A DNA stretch of 55,215 nt, from assembly GCA_044352355.1 (NCBI GenBank), contig JBILEA010000001.1:1-55215 (forward strand), written 5' to 3'. This DNA is from Pontiellaceae bacterium (GTDB lineage Bacteria; Verrucomicrobiota; Kiritimatiellia; Kiritimatiellales; Tichowtungiaceae). Numbering within the stretch: the stretch's first letter is position 1; the number at the start of each line of letters is the position of its first letter. Below are positions 21,774-30,449 of this stretch, one piece after another. The position numbers were made by a program, and so were the translations under genes. The notes beneath the pieces are model-generated. The model ran no database searches. It had not been told where the DNA came from and was given only the letters and a program-made list of their open reading frames with translations.

Positions 21774-21847
<74 letters not shown>

Positions 21848-21936: not shown

Positions 21937-22005
21937 TTTGGCCGGTTGATTCGCCCTGTTTGATTAAGGGCGTTTCATATGAACACAAACAACAGGAGGC
22001 AGAAA

Positions 22006-23346
22006 ATGGGACTGGAAATTACACGGAAGAAAGACGGGACATTGCGGTCAAACTGGTGGTACGGACGGTTTGAGATAAACGGGCAGACGAAGTGCGTGAG
22101 CCTTGATGTCGAGATCAAGGGGCGCATCCCCGCCACGCTTCGCGAAATCGGAGACCCGCTGTTTGAAAGGTCGCGTGCTCAAGCTCAGGTAAAGCTGGAC
22201 GAATTGATCCGCGAGGCCAGAAGCCACAAGGCCGCGGAAAGGCACCTGCAGGACCTGTACGAGCTGAAAGCAGGCAGTGCACTGCACAACGCACCGCTGA
22301 CAGAGATGGAGAGCATCTGGGATAACATTCCGACGAAGAAGACCCGGTCGAAGCAGTGGGTTGAAACCCAGCACAGCGCATTGAAGGCGTTCCGGGAGTT
22401 TATCACAAAGCAACACTCGCATGTTGCCACCATGCCGCAGGTGACGCGGGCCATGGCGCTGGCCTGGCTGCGGACGCTAGATGAAAAGGGCCTTCGAGCG
22501 GAGACCTACAACCATAAGCTGAACCTGTTTCAAAGCATCTTTAATCCGGCGGAGAATACCGGGGTGCTGCGCAACCCGTTTGCCGGCATTCCGCGAAAAC
22601 GGAAAATGACAGTACATCGCGAGCCGTTTACGGAGGAAGAACTGGAACGCATAATAGCGCACTGCGGAGAGCTGATCCGGCCGGTCTTTATCACCGGCAT
22701 GTGTACAGCCATGCGGCGTGGCGACTGCTGCCTGCTGAAATGGGACTCCGTTGATCTCGAGAACGGATTTATCACGGTGGAAACCTCCAAGACAGGCGAA
22801 ATGGCTGAGATTCCGCTGTTCTCCCGGCTCCGGAAGGAGATCGAGAATATGCCCCGGTTTGGGGAATATGTTTTTCCCGAGGCCGCCAAAATGTATCTGG
22901 AAAATCATCGCGGGATCAGCTGGCGGATGAAAACGGCTCTGGAGAATGCCGAGATCACAAGGAACAAGGTCGGCAGAAATGGCCGACTGGCAAACATTAA
23001 GGGGTTCCATTCCCTGCGAACAACGTGGATCACCATGGCGCTGACCGCCGGGGTTCCGATGGAGCTGGTGCGGCGCGTTACCGGCCACTCCACGGTCAAT
23101 GTCGTGCTCAAGCACTATTTCCACCCGAAGCGGGAGGATTTTCGCGAGGCATTGGAGTCCTCGCTTCCTCACACCCTGACCGGCGGGACAGAGGAGCGCT
23201 TCGACCTGCCCAAAGAGGTGCTACAGCTCGGCAAGGTGGTTCGTTCGCTGACGCACGAAGGGCTGGTCGAAAAAGTCGAAGCCCTTACTGCGGCGGTTGC
23301 CCGCATGACGAAAGCCCAAAAAGCCGCCGCCGTCATCGCCGCCTGA
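22006..23346 (+). CDS. tyrosine recombinase/integrase
   Basis: AGGAGG RBS; catalytic R (AMRRGD), K (TSKTG), HxxR (FHSLR), H (TGHS), Y (KHYF). Confidence 0.93.
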   Translation: MGLEITRKKDGTLRSNWWYGRFEINGQTKCVSLDVEIKGRIPATLREIGDPLFERSRAQAQVKLDELIREARSHKAAERHLQDLYELKAGSALHNAPLTEMESIWDNIPTKKTRSKQWVETQHSALKAFREFITKQHSHVATMPQVTRAMALAWLRTLDEKGLRAETYNHKLNLFQSIFNPAENTGVLRNPFAGIPRKRKMTVHREPFTEEELERIIAHCGELIRPVFITGMCTAMRRGDCCLLKWDSVDLENGFITVETSKTGEMAEIPLFSRLRKEIENMPRFGEYVFPEAAKMYLENHRGISWRMKTALENAEITRNKVGRNGRLANIKGFHSLRTTWITMALTAGVPMELVRRVTGHSTVNVVLKHYFHPKREDFREALESSLPHTLTGGTEERFDLPKEVLQLGKVVRSLTHEGLVEKVEALTAAVARMTKAQKAAAVIAA

Positions 23347-23625: not shown

Positions 23626-23730
23626 ATGAAACGGCAAAAATACGAAATGGATGAATGGGCATTTATTGAAATCGCCAACGACATCCGTGACATTAAAAAC
23701 CAGTTGAAAACAAAAATTGCGGGATTATGA
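23626..23730 (+). pseudogene. probable C-terminal remnant of a type III restriction (Res) subunit
   Basis: RQKYEMDEWAFIEIANDIRDIKNQLKTKIAGL* resembles type III Res C-termini (from recall); its stop overlaps the next ATG (ATGA). Confidence 0.45.
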
Positions 23731-25262
23731 ATCAGAAAGAAAAAATACGCATCTTCGTCAGCTCGGTTCAAAAGGAACTTGAACTTGAGCGGGTAGCCGT
23801 CGCCAGCTGGGTATCTGCCGATCCGCAACTGGCCGATGTGTGCGAAGTCGTACTCTTTGAAAAAGAACCGCTTTCCGGCAAACGAATCCGTAAGCCCTAT
23901 CTGGAATGTCTCGAAACCTGCCAGATTTATCTGCTGATTCTGGATTGCGAATACGGAAATCCGCCGGAATTTTCCGCTACGCATGAGGAATACCGGTTCG
24001 CTTGCGAAAAGGGACTCCCCATCTTGATCTTCCTGAAAGGAAAGACCGATTACAGGAGGGAAGCAAAAACCAAAGCATTCCTGAAGGAAATCAAGGACGA
24101 CGATAACACGTATAAACGCTTCCATGACCGGCTGGATTTGGAGCCTGAATTCAGGAAAGCCCTTAACCGGGCTCTGGAAAATTTATTCGATGTTCAGATT
24201 GAATCTGAGCCAGCGGATACAGTTCCATCGGTTGAATCCGCCTCGGTATTTGAGCAGCAGGCTCTGGATATCTCCGCAGACCAACTCGATGAAACGTCAT
24301 CGGAAAAATGGCTTCGCGCAATCAAGGCGGTTCCGGAAGGACAATCCCTTTCGGATATAGAACGGCTGAATGCATTACGGCAAAAAGGACTGGTTCGGCT
24401 TGAAGGTAGCTTATTCCGGACACAGGCGTCCGGTCTGCTTTTTCTGGGCAAAGACCCGGCGGCCCGATTCCCGCAATGCCGGATTTTTGCCGATGCATTC
24501 CGGGGAACGCTTTCGGACAGCACCCCGGCGGATCAGATCACACTTTCCGGGCCAGCTCCGGTTTTGGTCGAACAGGTCTGGGAATTTGTTCAGAAAAACA
24601 CGCGTCATCCGATGCGGGTTGTCGGCATGACCCGGATCGCACTGGATGAATATCCCCGTGAGGCTGTCCGTGAATGTATTGTGAATGCCATTGCCCACCG
24701 GAACTATGAAGACTCCGCACGCCAGATTCTGGTCAAACTGTTTTCCGACCAGCTGGAAATTCTGAGCCCGGGCTCGCCGATGAAGCCGCTGACCGTGGCC
24801 AAGATACGGAAAGGAAACTGCCCTCCGTGCTCCCGCAATCCGGTGCTCGGCCAGTATCTGAATCACCTTCGCCCGATGGATCAGCGCGGCAGCGGAATCG
24901 GGCGCATGAAAACCGCCATGCTCAATCACGGACTGAATGGGCCGGAGTATGCTTTGACCGAAGGCTATTTCTGCGTCACGTTGAAGGGGCCGGGTGATGA
25001 TCTGGATTGTTTGAGAATTCCGGCGGGAGCTTCGGCGGGACTGCCGCCAGCGGTTGAGGAACAGTTAAACGCGAGACAGAAGCGGATACTTGCATACGTA
25101 TCTGAGACCGGGCTTGTCACCAGCGGGTGGTGCCGCAAAGAGTTTGATGTCACGTATAACACAGCCTATCGGGATCTTTCAGCACTGGTGGAGTTGAGGC
25201 TTCTGAATCAAAAGGGCAAAGGGCGGTCAACCCGGTATGTTTTGTTTGGAGTGGGATCGTGA
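23727..25262 (+). CDS. DUF4062 - HATPase_c_4 (RecG C-terminal-like) - winged-HTH protein
   Basis: RIFVSSVQKELELER...YG...SATHEEY (DUF4062); YPREAVRECIVNAIAHRNY, EILSPG, SRNPVL, QRGSGI (HATPase_c_4); LNARQKRIL...TAYRDLSALV...GKGRSTRY (wHTH). Confidence 0.88.
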   Translation: MNQKEKIRIFVSSVQKELELERVAVASWVSADPQLADVCEVVLFEKEPLSGKRIRKPYLECLETCQIYLLILDCEYGNPPEFSATHEEYRFACEKGLPILIFLKGKTDYRREAKTKAFLKEIKDDDNTYKRFHDRLDLEPEFRKALNRALENLFDVQIESEPADTVPSVESASVFEQQALDISADQLDETSSEKWLRAIKAVPEGQSLSDIERLNALRQKGLVRLEGSLFRTQASGLLFLGKDPAARFPQCRIFADAFRGTLSDSTPADQITLSGPAPVLVEQVWEFVQKNTRHPMRVVGMTRIALDEYPREAVRECIVNAIAHRNYEDSARQILVKLFSDQLEILSPGSPMKPLTVAKIRKGNCPPCSRNPVLGQYLNHLRPMDQRGSGIGRMKTAMLNHGLNGPEYALTEGYFCVTLKGPGDDLDCLRIPAGASAGLPPAVEEQLNARQKRILAYVSETGLVTSGWCRKEFDVTYNTAYRDLSALVELRLLNQKGKGRSTRYVLFGVGS

Positions 25263-25618
25263 ATTTATCGATAATCTATCGATCATTTTCCCGAATCTAT
25301 CGATGGGGCAATCTATCGATAATCTATCGACGTTTCGATGAAATCTATCGAAAGTACAGAAACCTGCGCTCTGTGAAATCGACCGATAATCTTCCGATTT
25401 TTTTCTCTAATCTTCCGATTTGAACTCTTTTGTATGCGGGCGAAATCGACCGATTATCGACTGATCATTCGGAATAATCGTCCGATTGGGCCGCCGGAAA
25501 TCGTTTCATAATCGTTTCACGCTGGGGCGCTAATCGTTTCATTGCTATATCCGTCAATCGGAGGGCTGCGTGAATAATCTATCACTTTTCTATCACCAAA
25601 ATGGTGGAATCTATCACA
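25262..25618 (+). repeat. array of six box-box-spacer-box modules of 11-bp direct repeats
   Basis: Modules start at 25262, 25310, 25377, 25444, 25499, 25576; boxes at offsets 0, 11 and 32 (33 in module 5); box types AATCTATCGAT, AATC(G/T)(A/T)CCGAT, AATCGTTTCAT, AATCTATCAC. Confidence 0.92.
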
Positions 25619-25712: not shown

Positions 25713-27203
25713 TCAGAATTCTGCACAAATAAACCTCAACTTCTGAATAATCCGAATCATGGCCAGCGTGTCGAGATGGCAGTATTTCAGGAGTGCGGCG
25801 CGAACGCGTTTCCGCTCTTCCTCAGGAACGTCGCCAAACGTAACGCGGGCGTATTCGCTACTAGCGGTTCCCCCGTCACCAATTTCCATCTCACCATACG
25901 AGAGTTCCGGCACGAGCGCAGGCAGAACTTGTTTGATGGAAGCGGTGCCCCCTTGGTTGGGATGGTAATAGTGAAACGCTTGGAACGGTGCCAACAAATC
26001 AACAAAGCGCGGGATAAGGTCTTCGACAAAAGGCCTAAATTCGGGGAAGGCTTCTGCTGTTTCGCGCAGTCGTGAAATCTCAAAGCTCATGTTGTAAGCC
26101 ACAATATTGCCATCCGGACCGATGTGCTTCTCCAATGTGGCAAGGAGGTCGGGGCGCGGATCGGTCTTCCCGTCGGACAGAAATTCAACATGCTCCGGCT
26201 CAGAGTCGTAGGATTTCCAGATATGAAGTGAGAATTGAAACGGTATCTGCTGATATGGCCGGGTGTTGTCGTATGGGGGAATGGCTGATTGGAAGGTCTC
26301 AAAGTCTAGGTGGTATTGGGGGAACGTCAGCCCGTTTAAAAAGCCTCGAATTGCATCCCTGTCAATATGCGGCTCTTGCGACAATACGCAGTCGCGCTGA
26401 ATTGCTGCCTTGTGGCTCAAATAAAACTCAGGCGGCAGGTCGCGAATCCCGAAAATCCCTTTATCAATCAGCTCCTGCTTTTTATCAGACCCCAGTCGAT
26501 AAAGCGTTGTTACGTTGTCTTCGGGCAAAAAGGCCCAGCATTCTGCACACAAAGGACATTCGTAGGGATCTGAGCAGTGCGACCCGACTGCTACCTCAGG
26601 ACATTGAGGCTCGCTGATCACGGCTAGCATCCTGTCCATATTCCCACGCACTTGAGGCAGAATCTCCGCCACTGCTTCCGTAACGTCGGCCTTAGTGAAC
26701 AGTTGCCCGGCATCAATCTCTCCGTGGCGAACATATTGGTTATTAATGTGAGTTACAAAGCAGCGGCTAATCTTCAGTCCGGCAGACTCGTAGCAGTTTT
26801 TTTGAAACGCGATATCTTCCAAATAGACCGGCTTAACCCCCGTTGCGCTTTTGACCTCAACAATGTCCCAGGCATCGTCGCCGACAGGTACAAGGATGTC
26901 TGCCTGCGCATAGGCTCCGTCGTGTGAGAACGTCGCCTCGAAGATGGGCTTCCTTAATGGTAGCGCCTTGGCGGTCTCTTCTGCCATTTCCTGAAATGCA
27001 CCAGAGCGGTAGACGATTTCAATGCCGCCGGGATAAAGCGACTTCGCCAGGTCGCCGATCACATGCCCCTGATCAAATCGGGCCTGTACCGATGCATCCA
27101 CCTCTGGCAACCGTTCTTTGTCGTTGTAATGCACCCACAGCAACTTTGGGCATTGCAACCCGAGGCAGTATTTCGATTTAGAGATATTTCTTAATCTGCT
27201 CAT
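25713..27203 (-). CDS. DUF2779 protein: Cas4/RecB-like PD-(D/E)xK nuclease fused to RNase H-like 3'-5' exonuclease
   Basis: ISKSKY...QCPK, ADIL...IVEVKS, CSDPYECPLCAEC; C-terminal LDFET, PYQQIPFQFSLH, YNMSFE, DLL, SIKQVLP, YCHLDT. Confidence 0.88.
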   Translation of the reverse strand: MSRLRNISKSKYCLGLQCPKLLWVHYNDKERLPEVDASVQARFDQGHVIGDLAKSLYPGGIEIVYRSGAFQEMAEETAKALPLRKPIFEATFSHDGAYAQADILVPVGDDAWDIVEVKSATGVKPVYLEDIAFQKNCYESAGLKISRCFVTHINNQYVRHGEIDAGQLFTKADVTEAVAEILPQVRGNMDRMLAVISEPQCPEVAVGSHCSDPYECPLCAECWAFLPEDNVTTLYRLGSDKKQELIDKGIFGIRDLPPEFYLSHKAAIQRDCVLSQEPHIDRDAIRGFLNGLTFPQYHLDFETFQSAIPPYDNTRPYQQIPFQFSLHIWKSYDSEPEHVEFLSDGKTDPRPDLLATLEKHIGPDGNIVAYNMSFEISRLRETAEAFPEFRPFVEDLIPRFVDLLAPFQAFHYYHPNQGGTASIKQVLPALVPELSYGEMEIGDGGTASSEYARVTFGDVPEEERKRVRAALLKYCHLDTLAMIRIIQKLRFICAEF

Positions 27204-27340
27204 ATAACTGAGTTCCCTTGCTCTTTTCACATTTCGTTTGTTTTTCGGCGAGCCCTAAATCTTTATCCCCTTCCAGCGGACGGTAATGCCGTTACAAAGA
27301 TGCTTCTTATATTCATACTCAGGGTTTATCAGACCCAACC

Positions 27341-28087: not shown

Positions 28088-28807
28088 TCAAAGCAAAACT
28101 GCGTTTGATATTCCCGAACCGTGGGCCAGGTTGTCGCAAAACACAACGGATTTAAATTTATACTTGGGCAGCACTGTTTCCACCGCAATTCGACCCATCA
28201 GCGGAACGGCGTTGTTAGCGCCATGAAAAACGAGGTGTGGAAAGACGCCCATATTATTGAGCCCCTGTACAAGATCAGAAATCGGAAGAAATGGATCAGA
28301 AAATCCAGCGGAATATATCAACAACATTTCCTCAATGGCGTTTAGTTTTATATCGTTCCACTTGTCGGATGAAAGCCAGGGGAAAAAATTTGTTGCAATC
28401 AAAACAACCTGTGTTCGGTTGGTAGCATCCAGCGGCAGAGCCAGATCGTCATATACTTTTTTGAGGCGTCCTCGCATTTTAGTGTCGTCATACCACGGCT
28501 TTACTATGCCTCTTGATGTCCCAATTTGACCATAATTTATACCAACTGCGACGACCACCTCGGGGATAGACTCTGGGACATCACCCCCGTCGTATCTTCC
28601 AGTAGTGCTGTTTTTATTAGCGCTGTCTATGACGGCAACGACCTGATTGTATGCAATAGGATTGCCCAATACGTCTTTCAAAATGTCATTCTGGGGTTTG
28701 CACCAATCCTTACAGTGCGTGCTGAATCCTCCCGCCGGAAGTTTTGGGGTTACAATAGGGGTCGTGTTAATTCCGTCTATAATTTTTTCGAGTTCTCGTT
28801 TCGTCAT
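28088..28807 (-). CDS. hypothetical protein, UDG-superfamily-like (paralog B)
   Basis: GGAGG RBS; VAVGINYGQ, IATNFFPW, LVFHG, CDNL motifs shared with the upstream paralog; AT-rich. Confidence 0.75.
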   Translation of the reverse strand: MTKRELEKIIDGINTTPIVTPKLPAGGFSTHCKDWCKPQNDILKDVLGNPIAYNQVVAVIDSANKNSTTGRYDGGDVPESIPEVVVAVGINYGQIGTSRGIVKPWYDDTKMRGRLKKVYDDLALPLDATNRTQVVLIATNFFPWLSSDKWNDIKLNAIEEMLLIYSAGFSDPFLPISDLVQGLNNMGVFPHLVFHGANNAVPLMGRIAVETVLPKYKFKSVVFCDNLAHGSGISNAVLL

Positions 28808-28918: not shown

Positions 28919-30449
28919 TTAGTCGTCTATACATCTTTGCATTTTTTTGGTGTTCCGACAGAGATCGCCCTTTTCATACCGTTTAAGTTTATTGAGCTGC
29001 TTAATATAGTCGTAGGGGAGTGAGAGGTTCGGGAGAAGTATCCATTTGTTGATTTTTCGATTTTCGATCCATAGACGAAAAAGAGCAAAAACTTCGCTAC
29101 CCATGCCGTGACCCACCCAAAGAACAGGCTGCTCTTTCTTTGATAATTCATCTGCGAGCGCGTCTAAATGAAGCCAGTCACTTGTTGAAGTGGCTCCATT
29201 AAAAGGCGGATTGTTAATCAAAAGATTTGCCCGGAGACAGGTCTCGACGTCCTGCCAGTAATCATCCGTAATCCACACGCAAAAATTTGTCATAACGAGG
29301 TGGAAATCATAATTTTTATCATAATTTGTCAATAGGCTAGGACTTGAGGCCAGACTGTATTTGTACCAGTTCACGGGGTCTTTGCGGTACGCTTCCAGCC
29401 CGCCATGCAGTTTGGTTTTCTCACCTTGAAGCCCTTGTACAACGCCGGGTGATTTTGGATCGATATCGCGCGGGCAACTGTTTGTTCCCTGAGTGTAATT
29501 TGCGCCAACAGAGACTACAATCGGAAGAGTCTCATCCATTTCCTCCAGATGAAGTGCAAAAACTTGAATTGGACAACGTGCCCCAATTGGAATAGGAAAG
29601 ATGCGTGGCCGCACACTAATGGGATCTGGCGGGGTTGGCACTTTTACTTGTCCCTCAAGGTTTTCCAGCAGGCCTTTTAACTTTGAATACTGTCGAGTAG
29701 ACATTGGGTTATCTCCTTTAGGTTTGCTTTGTATTCCCTGTTTACTCATCTCTTTCGATCTGATGAGTGTCACACTATTCAACCTTGTGAGGTAACTCCA
29801 ATGCCCCTCACAGAACCGTACGTGCGATTTTCCCGCATACGGCTCTTCAAATGTGTTCGCAAACTCCAGCTTTCACCTTCATCCGCTATAAGGTTAGTTT
29901 CCGTTTTCATAGTTTCCGGTCTCATGAACCGCCTTTGTTTCCTCTAATCTCTTCACACATCTGTCAGCCCCTTCGAGTCGGGTCGCCCCGCACAGGGCAT
30001 TACCCCTGCTACGCCTCTACTATGAGCTGATCCGACTCCCGTACATCCTTCCAGACATCCTCTCCTCTTCAGATTGTTTGTCCGTATCCCCTTGCGGGGA
30101 AGCCGTACGGGTCTCCCAAGTTCATGTAACACGCTTTCGTTTCCATACCACGGTCTCAGACCCCGGACGAGGGATGCATCGCTCACCTTGACGCGGCGCA
30201 CCCTGTTGCCTTCCAGTAAATGAACACTGTCGGCCTCATCGAAATGAAGTATTTCGGGGCTCAATCCCTTCACTTGCGTTGCGGTCTGGAAACTCCTCTC
30301 CTGTGGCTTCATCCGGTTCGTTACCTCCCCAGATGCACATTTGGTAACGGCCTGCTGGTTAGGCTTTGGCCGTGCCGGATTTTAACCGGCTGCCTGTTAC
30401 ACGCTTTGCTTGGCGCACTCATTTTAACTTCCGAATTATCTTCGTTCAT
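28919..30449 (-). CDS. hypothetical UDG-superfamily-like protein (paralog A), split by a group II intron; exons 30449-30419 and 29691-28919
   Basis: Joined exons give 804 nt in frame: MNEDNSEVKMKYSKLKGLLENLEG...; motifs VSVGANYTQ, VMTNFCVW, WVGHG, LPNL. Confidence 0.78.
29692..30418 (-). ncRNA. ORF-less group II intron (IIB-like, 727 nt)
   Basis: 5' GTGCG at 30418; domain V GAGCCGTATGCGGGAAAATCGCACGTACGGTTC (29845-29813); 3' CTACTCGAC at 29692; EBS1 TCATTT pairs with exon AAATGA; EBS2 ACTTC pairs with GAAGT; no RT ORF. Confidence 0.93.

What the first reader, a model, noticed from the sequence alone, without database searches (positions are those of the whole stretch)
25262..25618. Six-module array of helically phased 11-bp boxes with module-specific sequences, starting at the stop codon of a DUF4062-HATPase-wHTH gene
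Seen: six modules with near-identical geometry, box-box-10 nt-box (offsets 0/11/32; 33 in module 5), separated by unique linkers of 5, 24, 24, 12 and 33 nt. Boxes are similar within a module but differ between modules: M1-2 AATCTATCGAT, M3-4 AATC(G/T)(A/T)CCGAT, M5 AATCGTTTCAT, M6 AATCTATCAC. The first box overlaps the gene's TGA. Known: 11-bp tandem direct repeats on one DNA face are how wHTH proteins such as PhoB/OmpR bind. Inference: geometry conserved while the box sequence changes concertedly is not explained by slippage or CRISPR. It suggests a stack of cognate sites for different wHTH alleles, either footprints of successive gene-plus-site cassettes or a DNA array that loads or guards a DUF4062 effector. 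This is the best candidate here for an undescribed system.
Basis: partly seen in the sequence, partly recalled or inferred. Interest (0 to 1): 0.88.

Follow-up and report, generated by a model that had tools for sequence, protein, structure and literature searches.

The report
Stacked DNA locks for NAD-destroying enzyme
Behind a likely NAD-destroying anti-phage gene sits a stack of short DNA repeat modules, each matching a different swappable DNA-reading tip of that protein family, and because old modules are kept and some phages carry lone copies, the DNA itself likely acts as the lock that holds the enzyme off, which would be a new kind of antitoxin.

Summary
Observation confirmed. The six 0/11/32(33) modules are the only ones in the 3.0-Mb genome. 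The gene encodes a NIR/DUF4062 NADase, a GHKL ATPase and a wHTH, with catalytic residues invariant in 120 of 120 homologs. In 39 of 41 related loci a triple module sits at the stop codon (controls 0 of 272). Its sequence follows the wHTH recognition helix (r=0.62), not the protein core (r=0.03). wHTH plus module are swapped between near-identical cores. M1-2 match the resident helix. M3-M6 match other live alleles, and M6 still carries its old gene's last codons. New here: orphan modules also trail unrelated replacement genes, and eight unrelated phage records carry lone family-type modules (wrong-spacing controls 0); none encodes a matching wHTH. Binding and function are untested. Best model (0.5): the bound site holds the NADase off, site loss releases it, orphans are addiction scars and phage copies are decoys. 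Rivals: regulation, activation on the site, neutral recombination marks. Ten literature searches found no description of the array. Earlier scan notes on other DNA saw this protein type and 'matching repeats'; in the lines shown, none mentioned the code, the stacks or the phage copies.

The parts
21774..21847 (+). tRNA-Gly, likely integration site of the island (context)
   Evidence: no second copy of its 3' end in the window
21979..23346 (+). tyrosine integrase (context); the same integrase precedes the differently tipped allele in L001
   Evidence: PF00589
23623..23730 (+). relic 3' end of a BPTD_3080-family (type III-like) restriction endonuclease gene, overlapping the start codon (ATGA); the gene once sat in a restriction-modification operon as in L112
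   Evidence: 81% amino-acid identity over 32 residues to the gene upstream in L112; family
23727..25262 (+). 511-aa gene: NIR/DUF4062 NADase, GHKL ATPase (PF13749), winged HTH
23748..24002 (+). DUF4062/NIR TIR-like NADase domain (residues 8-92); predicted catalytic E88 at 23988-23990
   Evidence: E88 in 120 of 120 homologs, Y89 119, F10 118; role of the Glu from passages
24672..24983 (+). GHKL ATPase: E316/N320 motif and PF13749 (residues 333-419)
   Evidence: E316 and N320 in 120 of 120; equated with RzAgo E314/N318 from its ExxxN spacing, not by alignment
25055..25075 (+). approximate swap point between the conserved core and the variable wHTH tip (about codon 445)
   Evidence: 57-60 of 60 identical bases per block against L001 for the first 1,260 nt, then 52, 32, 24, 29; a contig joint at 25075 in run X9
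25065..25244 (+). winged HTH; recognition helix TYNTAYRD (T476-D483) at 25152-25175
   Evidence: model pLDDT 86-92 over residues 451-500, helices 449-461/466-473/477-489 and two wing strands; profile hits solved HTH proteins weakly
25262..25304 (+). M1, box AATCTATCGAT: cognate to the resident helix
   Evidence: same box follows the TYNTAYLD allele in L117
25310..25352 (+). M2, same box class; this module and its linker are an orphan behind TRQAV-type alleles in L001, L002, L004, L112
25377..25419 (+). M3, orphan: boxes 2-3 AATCTTCCGAT = (S/T)YDTANRD alleles; box 1 AATCGACCGAT = ANDTAGRD allele; missing in two strain contigs
25444..25486 (+). M4, orphan: AATCGACCGAT / AATCGTCCGAT = ANDTAGRD and (V/A)KDTAVRD alleles
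25499..25542 (+). M5, orphan: AATCGTTTCAT = SKVTAVRD allele (L106); M4-M5 with linker shared with L100
25544..25577 (+). relic of the last ~11 codons of an AYQTVYRD-type gene, joined to the M5 flank at a ~10-nt microhomology
   Evidence: DNA alignment to the L100 gene end continuous through M6; best C-terminal matches are both YQ-class
25576..25618 (+). M6, orphan: AATCTATCAC = AYQTVYRD allele (L100, L116)
25713..27230 (-). convergent DUF2779 gene (context; no co-oriented gene lies downstream of the array here)

Best explanation
The array is a stack of allele-specific DNA modules behind a likely NADase-ATPase-wHTH defence gene: the first module pair matches the resident DNA-reading helix, the rest match other alleles, and the matching module likely serves as a DNA antitoxin that holds the enzyme off until the site is lost. 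SHOWN by sequence: (1) the wHTH tip and its downstream module are exchanged together onto near-identical cores at about codon 445; (2) box sequence tracks the recognition helix; (3) distal modules are leftovers of earlier occupants; (4) unrelated phages carry lone modules. INFERRED: (5) the wHTH binds three boxes on one DNA face (0, 1 and 3 helical turns); (6) head-to-tail binding would keep the GHKL domains from forming the ATP-driven oligomer that NIR NADases need; (7) phage-driven destruction of host DNA, or loss of the island, would free the protein to deplete NAD+ (abortive infection or addiction); (8) a recombinant that replaces the gene would survive only if it keeps the old site while old protein persists, which would explain the stacks; (9) phage modules would be decoys that re-capture freed protein, driving turnover of the tip.
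For: Module at the stop codon in 32 of 41 near loci (strict) and 39 of 41 (relaxed); controls 0 of 618 and 0 of 272. Mantel on 32 loci: box~helix r=0.62, p=0.0002; box~core r=0.03, p=0.31; box~helix given core and non-helix wHTH r=0.52. 0 of 31 pairs with at least 70% core identity but a different helix share a box; all 10 identical-helix pairs agree at box positions 5-10. Residue-base pattern over 26 unique helices: position 2 Y to T 7 of 7; position 3 D to C 14 of 14, N/V/P to T 8 of 8; position 7 R to G 15 of 17, A/N/S/K to A 8 of 8. In the near clade (59 proteins, 8 helix classes) the core tree needs 35 changes (shuffled 38.7 +/- 1.8) and the helix-free wHTH tree 7. Orphan modules in 11 of 35 loci. 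L115 keeps a frameshifted old wHTH fused to its own cognate module. In L171 a YhcG nuclease gene ends in the last codons of a YDTAN-type allele and keeps that allele's module. No locus with a full NADase and a broken wHTH among 36 checked: L031 has a broken wHTH but also lacks the N-terminal half. Eight unrelated virus records carry lone family-type modules; wrong-spacing controls give 0; no PF13749 in 7 of 7 tested and no family wHTH in any of the 8. Boxes are mixed in 7 of 8 phage modules but uniform in 31 of 35 cognate host modules. 17 of 37 loci adjoin a restriction-modification or DUF1156/DUF3883 gene. Precedent for nucleic-acid-scaffolded off states: RzAgo head-to-tail filament, retron IX (abstract).
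Against: No binding, toxicity or defence data. Three to six boxes per chromosome could hold only a few protomers, so the model needs very low expression or spreading from the site; neither was shown. In RzAgo the apo form has only minimal activity and target DNA activates it, so the GHKL module need not be 'on by default'. Only 1 of 55 distant homologs has this strict geometry, and many show no repeats by eye, so the wider family can lack a site. Phage copies were found only for the xxCCGA box class; scans for three other classes, including the window's own, gave 0, 0 and two plain tandem arrays. The hosts of these phages are unknown, and L127 lies beside an integrase and may have picked its module up passively. 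One group of six related phage records has a similar triple inside an unannotated ORF that may be a replication initiator, so some phage copies may be iterons. M3 is lost in strain contigs, so orphans are dispensable later. Loci are related, so the p-values overstate independence; the trees are FastTree only, without an AU test. No background rate was computed for the 17 of 37 neighbour count.
Confidence: 0.5

Rival explanations
1. Regulatory operator. The wHTH binds its module to control transcription, as a roadblock or autoregulator at the 3' end, or as a regulator of the downstream restriction-modification genes. The NADase is triggered by some other phage signal, and orphans are neutral leftovers.
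For: Direct repeats at 11-bp spacing are typical of wHTH regulators (recalled). The gene often sits co-oriented inside restriction-modification operons, so the module precedes the next gene. Three sites suit a regulator's stoichiometry.
Against: No cognate box upstream of the gene in 0 of 29 loci and no module elsewhere in the genome. In the window the next gene is convergent. It does not explain rapid tip swapping, retention behind unrelated genes, or lone phage modules with exact geometry.
Confidence: 0.18
2. Activating scaffold. Binding to the module promotes the active oligomer, so the system fires when the locus or a matching foreign DNA is amplified, for example an excised replicating island or phage origin iterons. 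Phage modules would then be the sensed targets.
For: RzAgo is activated by target DNA and has minimal activity in the apo form. NIR activity rises with oligomerisation. One phage group carries a similar triple inside a possible replication-initiator ORF.
Against: A cognate activator next to its own gene risks self-killing. Phages would be selected to lose such sites, yet eight unrelated ones carry them, mostly intergenic or inserted in frame in a small ORF. It does not explain why old sites are kept.
Confidence: 0.15
3. Mobility or recombination mark. The bound module is a recombination or insertion target, or it blocks end resection, so replacements end just before it. The stacks and phage copies are neutral by-products of gene traffic through this slot.
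For: Junctions fall at microhomologies a few codons before old modules (window M6, L171, L183). All boxes share AATC, which favours module-to-module recombination; M3 is deleted between boxes in strains. An earlier scan note saw an archaeal relative behaving as a movable unit.
Against: The protein has no recombinase or nuclease domain. Phage modules carry no relic gene tail and have mixed boxes, which looks more like selection than capture. It does not explain fast diversification of specificity.
Confidence: 0.12
4. Non-coding RNA antitoxin or CRISPR-like array acting as RNA.
For: An array of repeats beside a toxin-like gene, as in type III toxin-antitoxin systems (recalled).
Against: No Rfam match in the array; folding z = -1.3; strict helical phasing; covariation with a DNA recognition helix; no promoter-like site in front of it.
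Confidence: 0.03

Closest known systems
'Schlatpase'-HTH proteins (SLFN_AlbA_2 + PF13749 + HTH; 'HisKinase-HTH' pSlfn; PDB 3lmm DIP2311) and SLFN-pAgo RzAgo (bioRxiv 10.64898/2026.05.29.728809: abstract, passages, sections 10 and 12; PMC13056530: passages)
   Same: GHKL PF13749 body with an ExxxN motif, C-terminal HTH, defence-island context; 3lmm is the best structural match.
   Different: The head is a NIR NADase, not a Schlafen RNase, and there is no Argonaute. The passages seen mention no downstream boxes, tip swapping or site stacks. The HisKinase-HTH architecture is not among the four that PMC13056530 lists as tested.
NIR/DUF4062 NADase defence systems: Swarozyc, Evangelion, Vulcan, Vesta, PsAvs2 (bioRxiv 10.64898/2026.05.01.722283, 2026.06.25.731849, 2026.09.04.749371: passages; section 6 of the last)
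   Same: DUF4062 domain with the conserved Phe and Glu-Tyr; likely NAD+ depletion as output.
   Different: Those carry Avs, HEAT-repeat, short auxiliary or phosphatase partners. 'HATPase' occurs 0 times in all three main texts and 'HTH' or 'wHTH' 0 times where searched; figures and supplements were not visible.
Polymorphic toxin-immunity loci (CDI/Rhs/Maf; recalled)
   Same: A variable C-terminal tip with its cognate partner directly downstream, swapped as a pair onto a constant body, and stacks of orphan partners behind.
   Different: Here the variable tip is a DNA-reading domain and the partner is a 43-bp DNA site, not an immunity protein. The toxic domain is the constant N-terminus, and there is no secretion domain.
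DNA-restrained effectors: retron IX (bioRxiv 10.64898/2026.07.14.737667, abstract), Retron-Eco1 (as cited), Hailong (recalled)
   Same: DNA holds an effector inactive and phage attack on that DNA releases it (proposed here, shown there).
   Different: Those use enzymatically made single-stranded DNA from a dedicated polymerase. Here the candidate is a genomic double-stranded site with no polymerase, and specificity changes by domain swap.
Type I restriction-modification HsdS target-recognition-domain exchange (recalled)
   Same: DNA specificity changes by recombining a recognition domain; frequent RM-operon context.
   Different: The recognised site travels with the domain in one place instead of being spread over the genome, and there is no methyltransferase partner.

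Membership tests
NIR/DUF4062 NADase effectors | DUF4062 domain over the Pfam cut-off | tested here: met
   PF13271 47.6 bits vs cut-off 24.7, residues 8-92
NIR/DUF4062 NADase effectors | conserved catalytic Glu in an E-Y motif and N-terminal Phe | tested here: met
   E88 120 of 120, Y89 119, F10 118; motif described; equivalence by motif, not by direct alignment to Eva01
NIR/DUF4062 NADase effectors | NAD+ hydrolysis and phage defence | not testable with these tools
   needs assay
Schlatpase-HTH (SLFN + PF13749 + HTH) | PF13749 GHKL domain with ExxxN | tested here: met
Schlatpase-HTH (SLFN + PF13749 + HTH) | SLFN_AlbA_2 nuclease head | tested here: not met
   no AlbA_2 hit; DUF4062 in its place
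SLFN-pAgo | Argonaute core | tested here: not met
   511 aa; PADLOC pAgo hits cover only residues 173-420, the shared GHKL part
Polymorphic toxin-immunity systems | variable C-terminal tip swapped on a constant body, orphan partners downstream | tested here: met
Polymorphic toxin-immunity systems | toxic tip, protein immunity gene, secretion or trafficking domain | tested here: not met
   tip is a wHTH, partner is non-coding DNA, no trafficking domain in Pfam
CRISPR array | one near-identical repeat alternating with unique spacers of constant length | tested here: not met
   boxes differ between modules, linkers 5-33 nt, no Rfam match in the array; cas genes were not searched
Type III toxin-antitoxin (RNA repeats) | structured repeat RNA upstream of the toxin | tested here: not met
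   array is downstream; z = -1.32; no Rfam match
Retron / Hailong DNA-restrained systems | linked reverse transcriptase or nucleotidyltransferase making the inhibitory DNA | tested here: not met
   none among the window neighbours or the 64 neighbour ORFs of 37 loci
OmpR/PhoB-type wHTH regulon | sites at promoters, upstream of the gene or elsewhere in the genome | tested here: not met
   0 of 29 loci have an upstream cognate box; no other triple module in the genome
Integron attC array | palindromic attC sites flanking retained gene cassettes, IntI integrase | not tested
   boxes are direct repeats and genes are not retained, but no attC model was run

The most novel reading that the evidence does not exclude
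A widespread class of single-gene defence or addiction elements in which the antitoxin is a 43-bp genomic DNA site read by a swappable wHTH under a simple residue-to-base code. The protein guards the integrity of the host chromosome, old sites pile up as a fossil record of past alleles, and phages answer with DNA-only decoys, an anti-defence element that encodes nothing.
Probability: 0.45. Interest if true: 0.95.

Novelty: categorically new. Interest (0 to 1): 0.86.

Why it matters
The protein parts are known (NIR NADase, GHKL ATPase, wHTH), but the system logic was not found in print. Effector-GHKL-HTH proteins are very common (60,692 Schlafen-GHKL proteins are cited), and what their HTH does was not found described. 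This locus gives cognate sites, a testable recognition code with natural mismatched controls in the same array, and a candidate mechanism. If the site is an antitoxin, it is a new toxin-antitoxin type, a way to sense host-genome destruction without a second messenger, and a DNA-only anti-defence decoy. It would also predict that cloning such genes without their 3' flank kills cells or hides their activity in screens. Even if the antitoxin model fails, dozens of natural wHTH-site pairs with a position-specific code are a ready set of orthogonal DNA-binding parts.

Tried and rejected
Chance or slippage: rejected. Structured RNA: no support. RNA runs X18-X20 gave only scattered short contigs, with none of this organism's array, so expression is not shown either way. 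Homodimer prediction of residues 1-432 with ATP: no answer, score 0.00, not evidence either way. A blind test of the code on modules found by pattern (28 matches in 26 of 401 genomes; 13 chance-like, 8 at known loci, 7 new) could not be run, because none of the 7 new modules had a cognate gene directly upstream. The protein-level relic-tail test was decisive only for L115 (score 76). Window M6 (30), L171 (29) and L183 (29) did not exceed the background maximum of 30 among 106 random stops, though each best hit fell in the cognate class; the M6 claim rests on the DNA alignment. Cultured phages (INPHARED) gave only E~1 chance hits and plasmids none for the array; plasmid protein hits were at most 35% identical. 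No attR copy of the tRNA end in the window. NCBIfam has no model for the protein. Literature: ten searches, including 'DNA antitoxin' (0 papers), found no description of the array. Most subscription papers and all bioRxiv supplements and figures were out of reach, so domain-architecture figures of the NIR preprints could show this protein.

Full report
Observation. The six modules, their 0/11/32(33) geometry, the linkers and the one-base overlap with the stop codon are as described. They are the only such modules in the window and in the 3.0-Mb genome on both strands. M3 and M4 are mixed rather than uniform. The region has no Rfam match and folds no better than shuffles (z -1.3). Contigs from runs X9 and X16 lack M3, and X16 also lacks 22 nt of M5.

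The gene. P0001 (511 aa) has DUF4062 at 8-92 and PF13749 at 333-419. An AlphaFold2 model (mean pLDDT 77) shows a Rossmann-like head, a GHKL body and a well-predicted winged helix; the best fold match is 3lmm. Three 2026 preprints (passages) show DUF4062 ('NIR') to be a TIR-like NADase used in phage defence, dependent on a Glu in an E-Y motif. E88 is present in 120 of 120 homologs, as are GHKL E316 and N320. In SLFN-pAgo the same PF13749 domain drives ATP-dependent tetramerisation, and head-to-tail filaments hold the effector off; its apo form is nearly inactive. The gene lies behind tRNA-Gly and an integrase. It overlaps a relic 3' end of a BPTD_3080-family restriction gene, the same gene that precedes the homolog in L112. 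Of 37 related loci whose neighbours were scanned, 17 adjoin an RM or DUF1156/DUF3883 gene (no background computed).

A cognate module travels with each wHTH. From 124 loci with a match, 96 non-redundant ones had the wHTH end and a stop; 41 of these (including the window) scored at least 200 bits. A triple module lies at the stop in 32 of 41 under the strict rule (0 of 618 controls) and in 39 of 41 allowing 10-11-nt first spacing (0 of 272). Only 1 of the 55 distant loci passes the strict rule; some have other repeats and many none. On 32 loci, box similarity correlates with recognition-helix identity (r 0.62, p 0.0002) but not with core identity (r 0.03, p 0.31), and stays at 0.52 after removing core and non-helix wHTH similarity. 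None of 31 pairs with close cores and different helices shares a box. Over 26 unique helices the pattern is position-specific: residue 2 Y to T5 (7 of 7), residue 3 D to C7 (14 of 14), residue 7 R to G9 (15 of 17). Residues 2, 3, 6 and 7 form one helix face, and Asp-C and Arg-G are standard contacts (established knowledge). This is strong but indirect evidence of binding; kinship inflates the p-values.

The tip is swapped. The window and L001 are 57-60 of 60 identical per block for 1,260 nt, then unrelated from about codon 445. Mean pairwise identity among the 60 closest proteins is 0.75 in the NADase, 0.74 in the ATPase and 0.45 in the wHTH; 120 homologs show 47 helix variants. In the near clade, helix class is almost random on the core tree (35 changes; shuffled 38.7 +/- 1.8) but clean on a helix-free wHTH tree (7). 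For all 107 labelled proteins the figures are 50 (shuffled 75) and 15 (FastTree only).

The distal modules are orphans. M1-2 match the resident TYNTAYRD type. M3 matches (S/T)YDTANRD, M4 ANDTAGRD and (V/A)KDTAVRD, M5 SKVTAVRD, M6 AYQTVYRD. M2 with its linker is shared with L001, L002 and L112 (the M2-type module also with L004), and M4-M5 with L100. The linker before M6 aligns with the last ~11 codons of the L100 gene and continues through M6. The join lies at a ~10-nt microhomology with the M5 flank, so a block ending in M5 appears to have replaced a resident AYQ-type gene up to, but not including, its module (inference). Orphans occur in 11 of 35 loci. L115 keeps half of an old wHTH fused to its cognate module. 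A module-first scan of 401 genomes added 7 modules, all orphans: five behind distant HATPase-wHTH genes with their own repeats, one behind a YhcG gene ending in a YDTAN-type tail, one unassigned.

Phages carry lone modules. A pattern fixing only AATC...GA and the spacing found 17 virus records: 9 plain tandem arrays, 1 non-family match and 7 with family boxes at the unspecified positions (about a 1% chance each). A second pattern added one more (L151) and six related records with a similar triple inside an unannotated ORF. Wrong spacings gave 0. The eight loci share no sequence beyond the module and lie among phage genes such as terminase, integrase, PhoH, ParB and resolvase. No PF13749 was found in the 7 records tested, three of them at least 90% complete, and no family wHTH in any of the 8 (the tool notes these wHTH searches had no positive control, though the profile scores E 1e-31 on the window's gene). 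Seven of eight have mixed boxes, against 31 of 35 uniform cognate host modules. Against over-reading: only the xxCCGA class was found, three other classes including the window's own gave nothing, and hosts are unknown.

Mechanism. The model that accounts for tight tip-site linkage, retention of old sites even behind unrelated genes, fast turnover of specificity and lone phage copies is a DNA antitoxin (0.5): bound means off, site loss means NAD+ depletion, orphans are addiction scars and phage modules are decoys. Its weak points are stoichiometry, the inactive apo state of RzAgo and the site-less distant relatives. Regulation (0.18) is weakened by 0 of 29 upstream boxes, no regulon and a convergent downstream gene. 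Activation on the site (0.15) and neutral recombination marks (0.12) stay open. A homodimer prediction gave no answer.

Known systems and novelty. The protein is a new variant of Schlatpase-HTH with a NIR head and fails membership of each named system tested. The organisation resembles polymorphic toxin-immunity loci (recalled) and the proposed action resembles DNA-restrained retrons (abstract), but with a genomic site and no polymerase. Ten searches found no account of the array; supplements, figures and most subscription papers were not visible. Earlier scan notes on other genomes saw the protein type and 'matching repeats'; these are leads, not support. I rate the system categorically new on its shown anatomy, with the mechanism untested.

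Noticed in passing
G000 contig C147 (L007), about 850-1600: Another stack in the same genome: a HATPase-wHTH gene with AAATGCGCCAA repeats, then a partial second HATPase-wHTH with in-frame 12-nt repeats (GAQS) and ATGAC(C/T)CA repeats, then two AATCGTCAAG boxes of the family studied here. Nine further PF13749-like paralogs exist in the genome; several show their own repeats after the stop.
   Followed up: partly
L048, L050, L055, L062, L068, L072, L073, L077, L093, L096, L098: Distant HATPase-wHTH genes with helix S(A/P)ET(I/L)RRD carry TATCCCACA repeats after the stop, while many relatives with SEETIRRD or SDETIRRD show none: a possible natural loss-of-site series.
   Followed up: no
L131:2476-2742: The phage module is inserted in frame in a small ORF right after a DTPRT motif and followed by TDTPKR; L136's module ends exactly at the next start codon.
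   Followed up: partly
L143, L144, L148, L149, L154, L155: One phage group has an AATCCCCCGAC triple with the same geometry inside a 300-aa ORF with no PHROGs or NCBIfam match, possibly a replication initiator with iterons; this may bear on the origin of the wHTH-site pair.
   Followed up: partly
window 29692-30383 (-): Group II intron RNA domains (Rfam RF02005, RF00029) with no long ORF between them in the ORF list: probably an ORF-less or truncated intron, overlapping the start of the 28919-29782 ORF.
   Followed up: no
window 28088-28807 (-) and 28919-29782 (-): Two island ORFs (239 and 287 aa) with no Pfam, PADLOC or NCBIfam match, beside DUF1643 and DUF2779 genes; possible further cargo.
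   Followed up: no
L102 and L023: The open frames are much longer than usual (over 1,000 and about 717 codons), suggesting N-terminal fusions to the NIR-GHKL-wHTH unit.
   Followed up: no
L156, L157: Virus records with long mixed 7/11-nt ATCGTCA tandem arrays resembling the TRQAV-class box, next to other repeat runs; unexplained.
   Followed up: no
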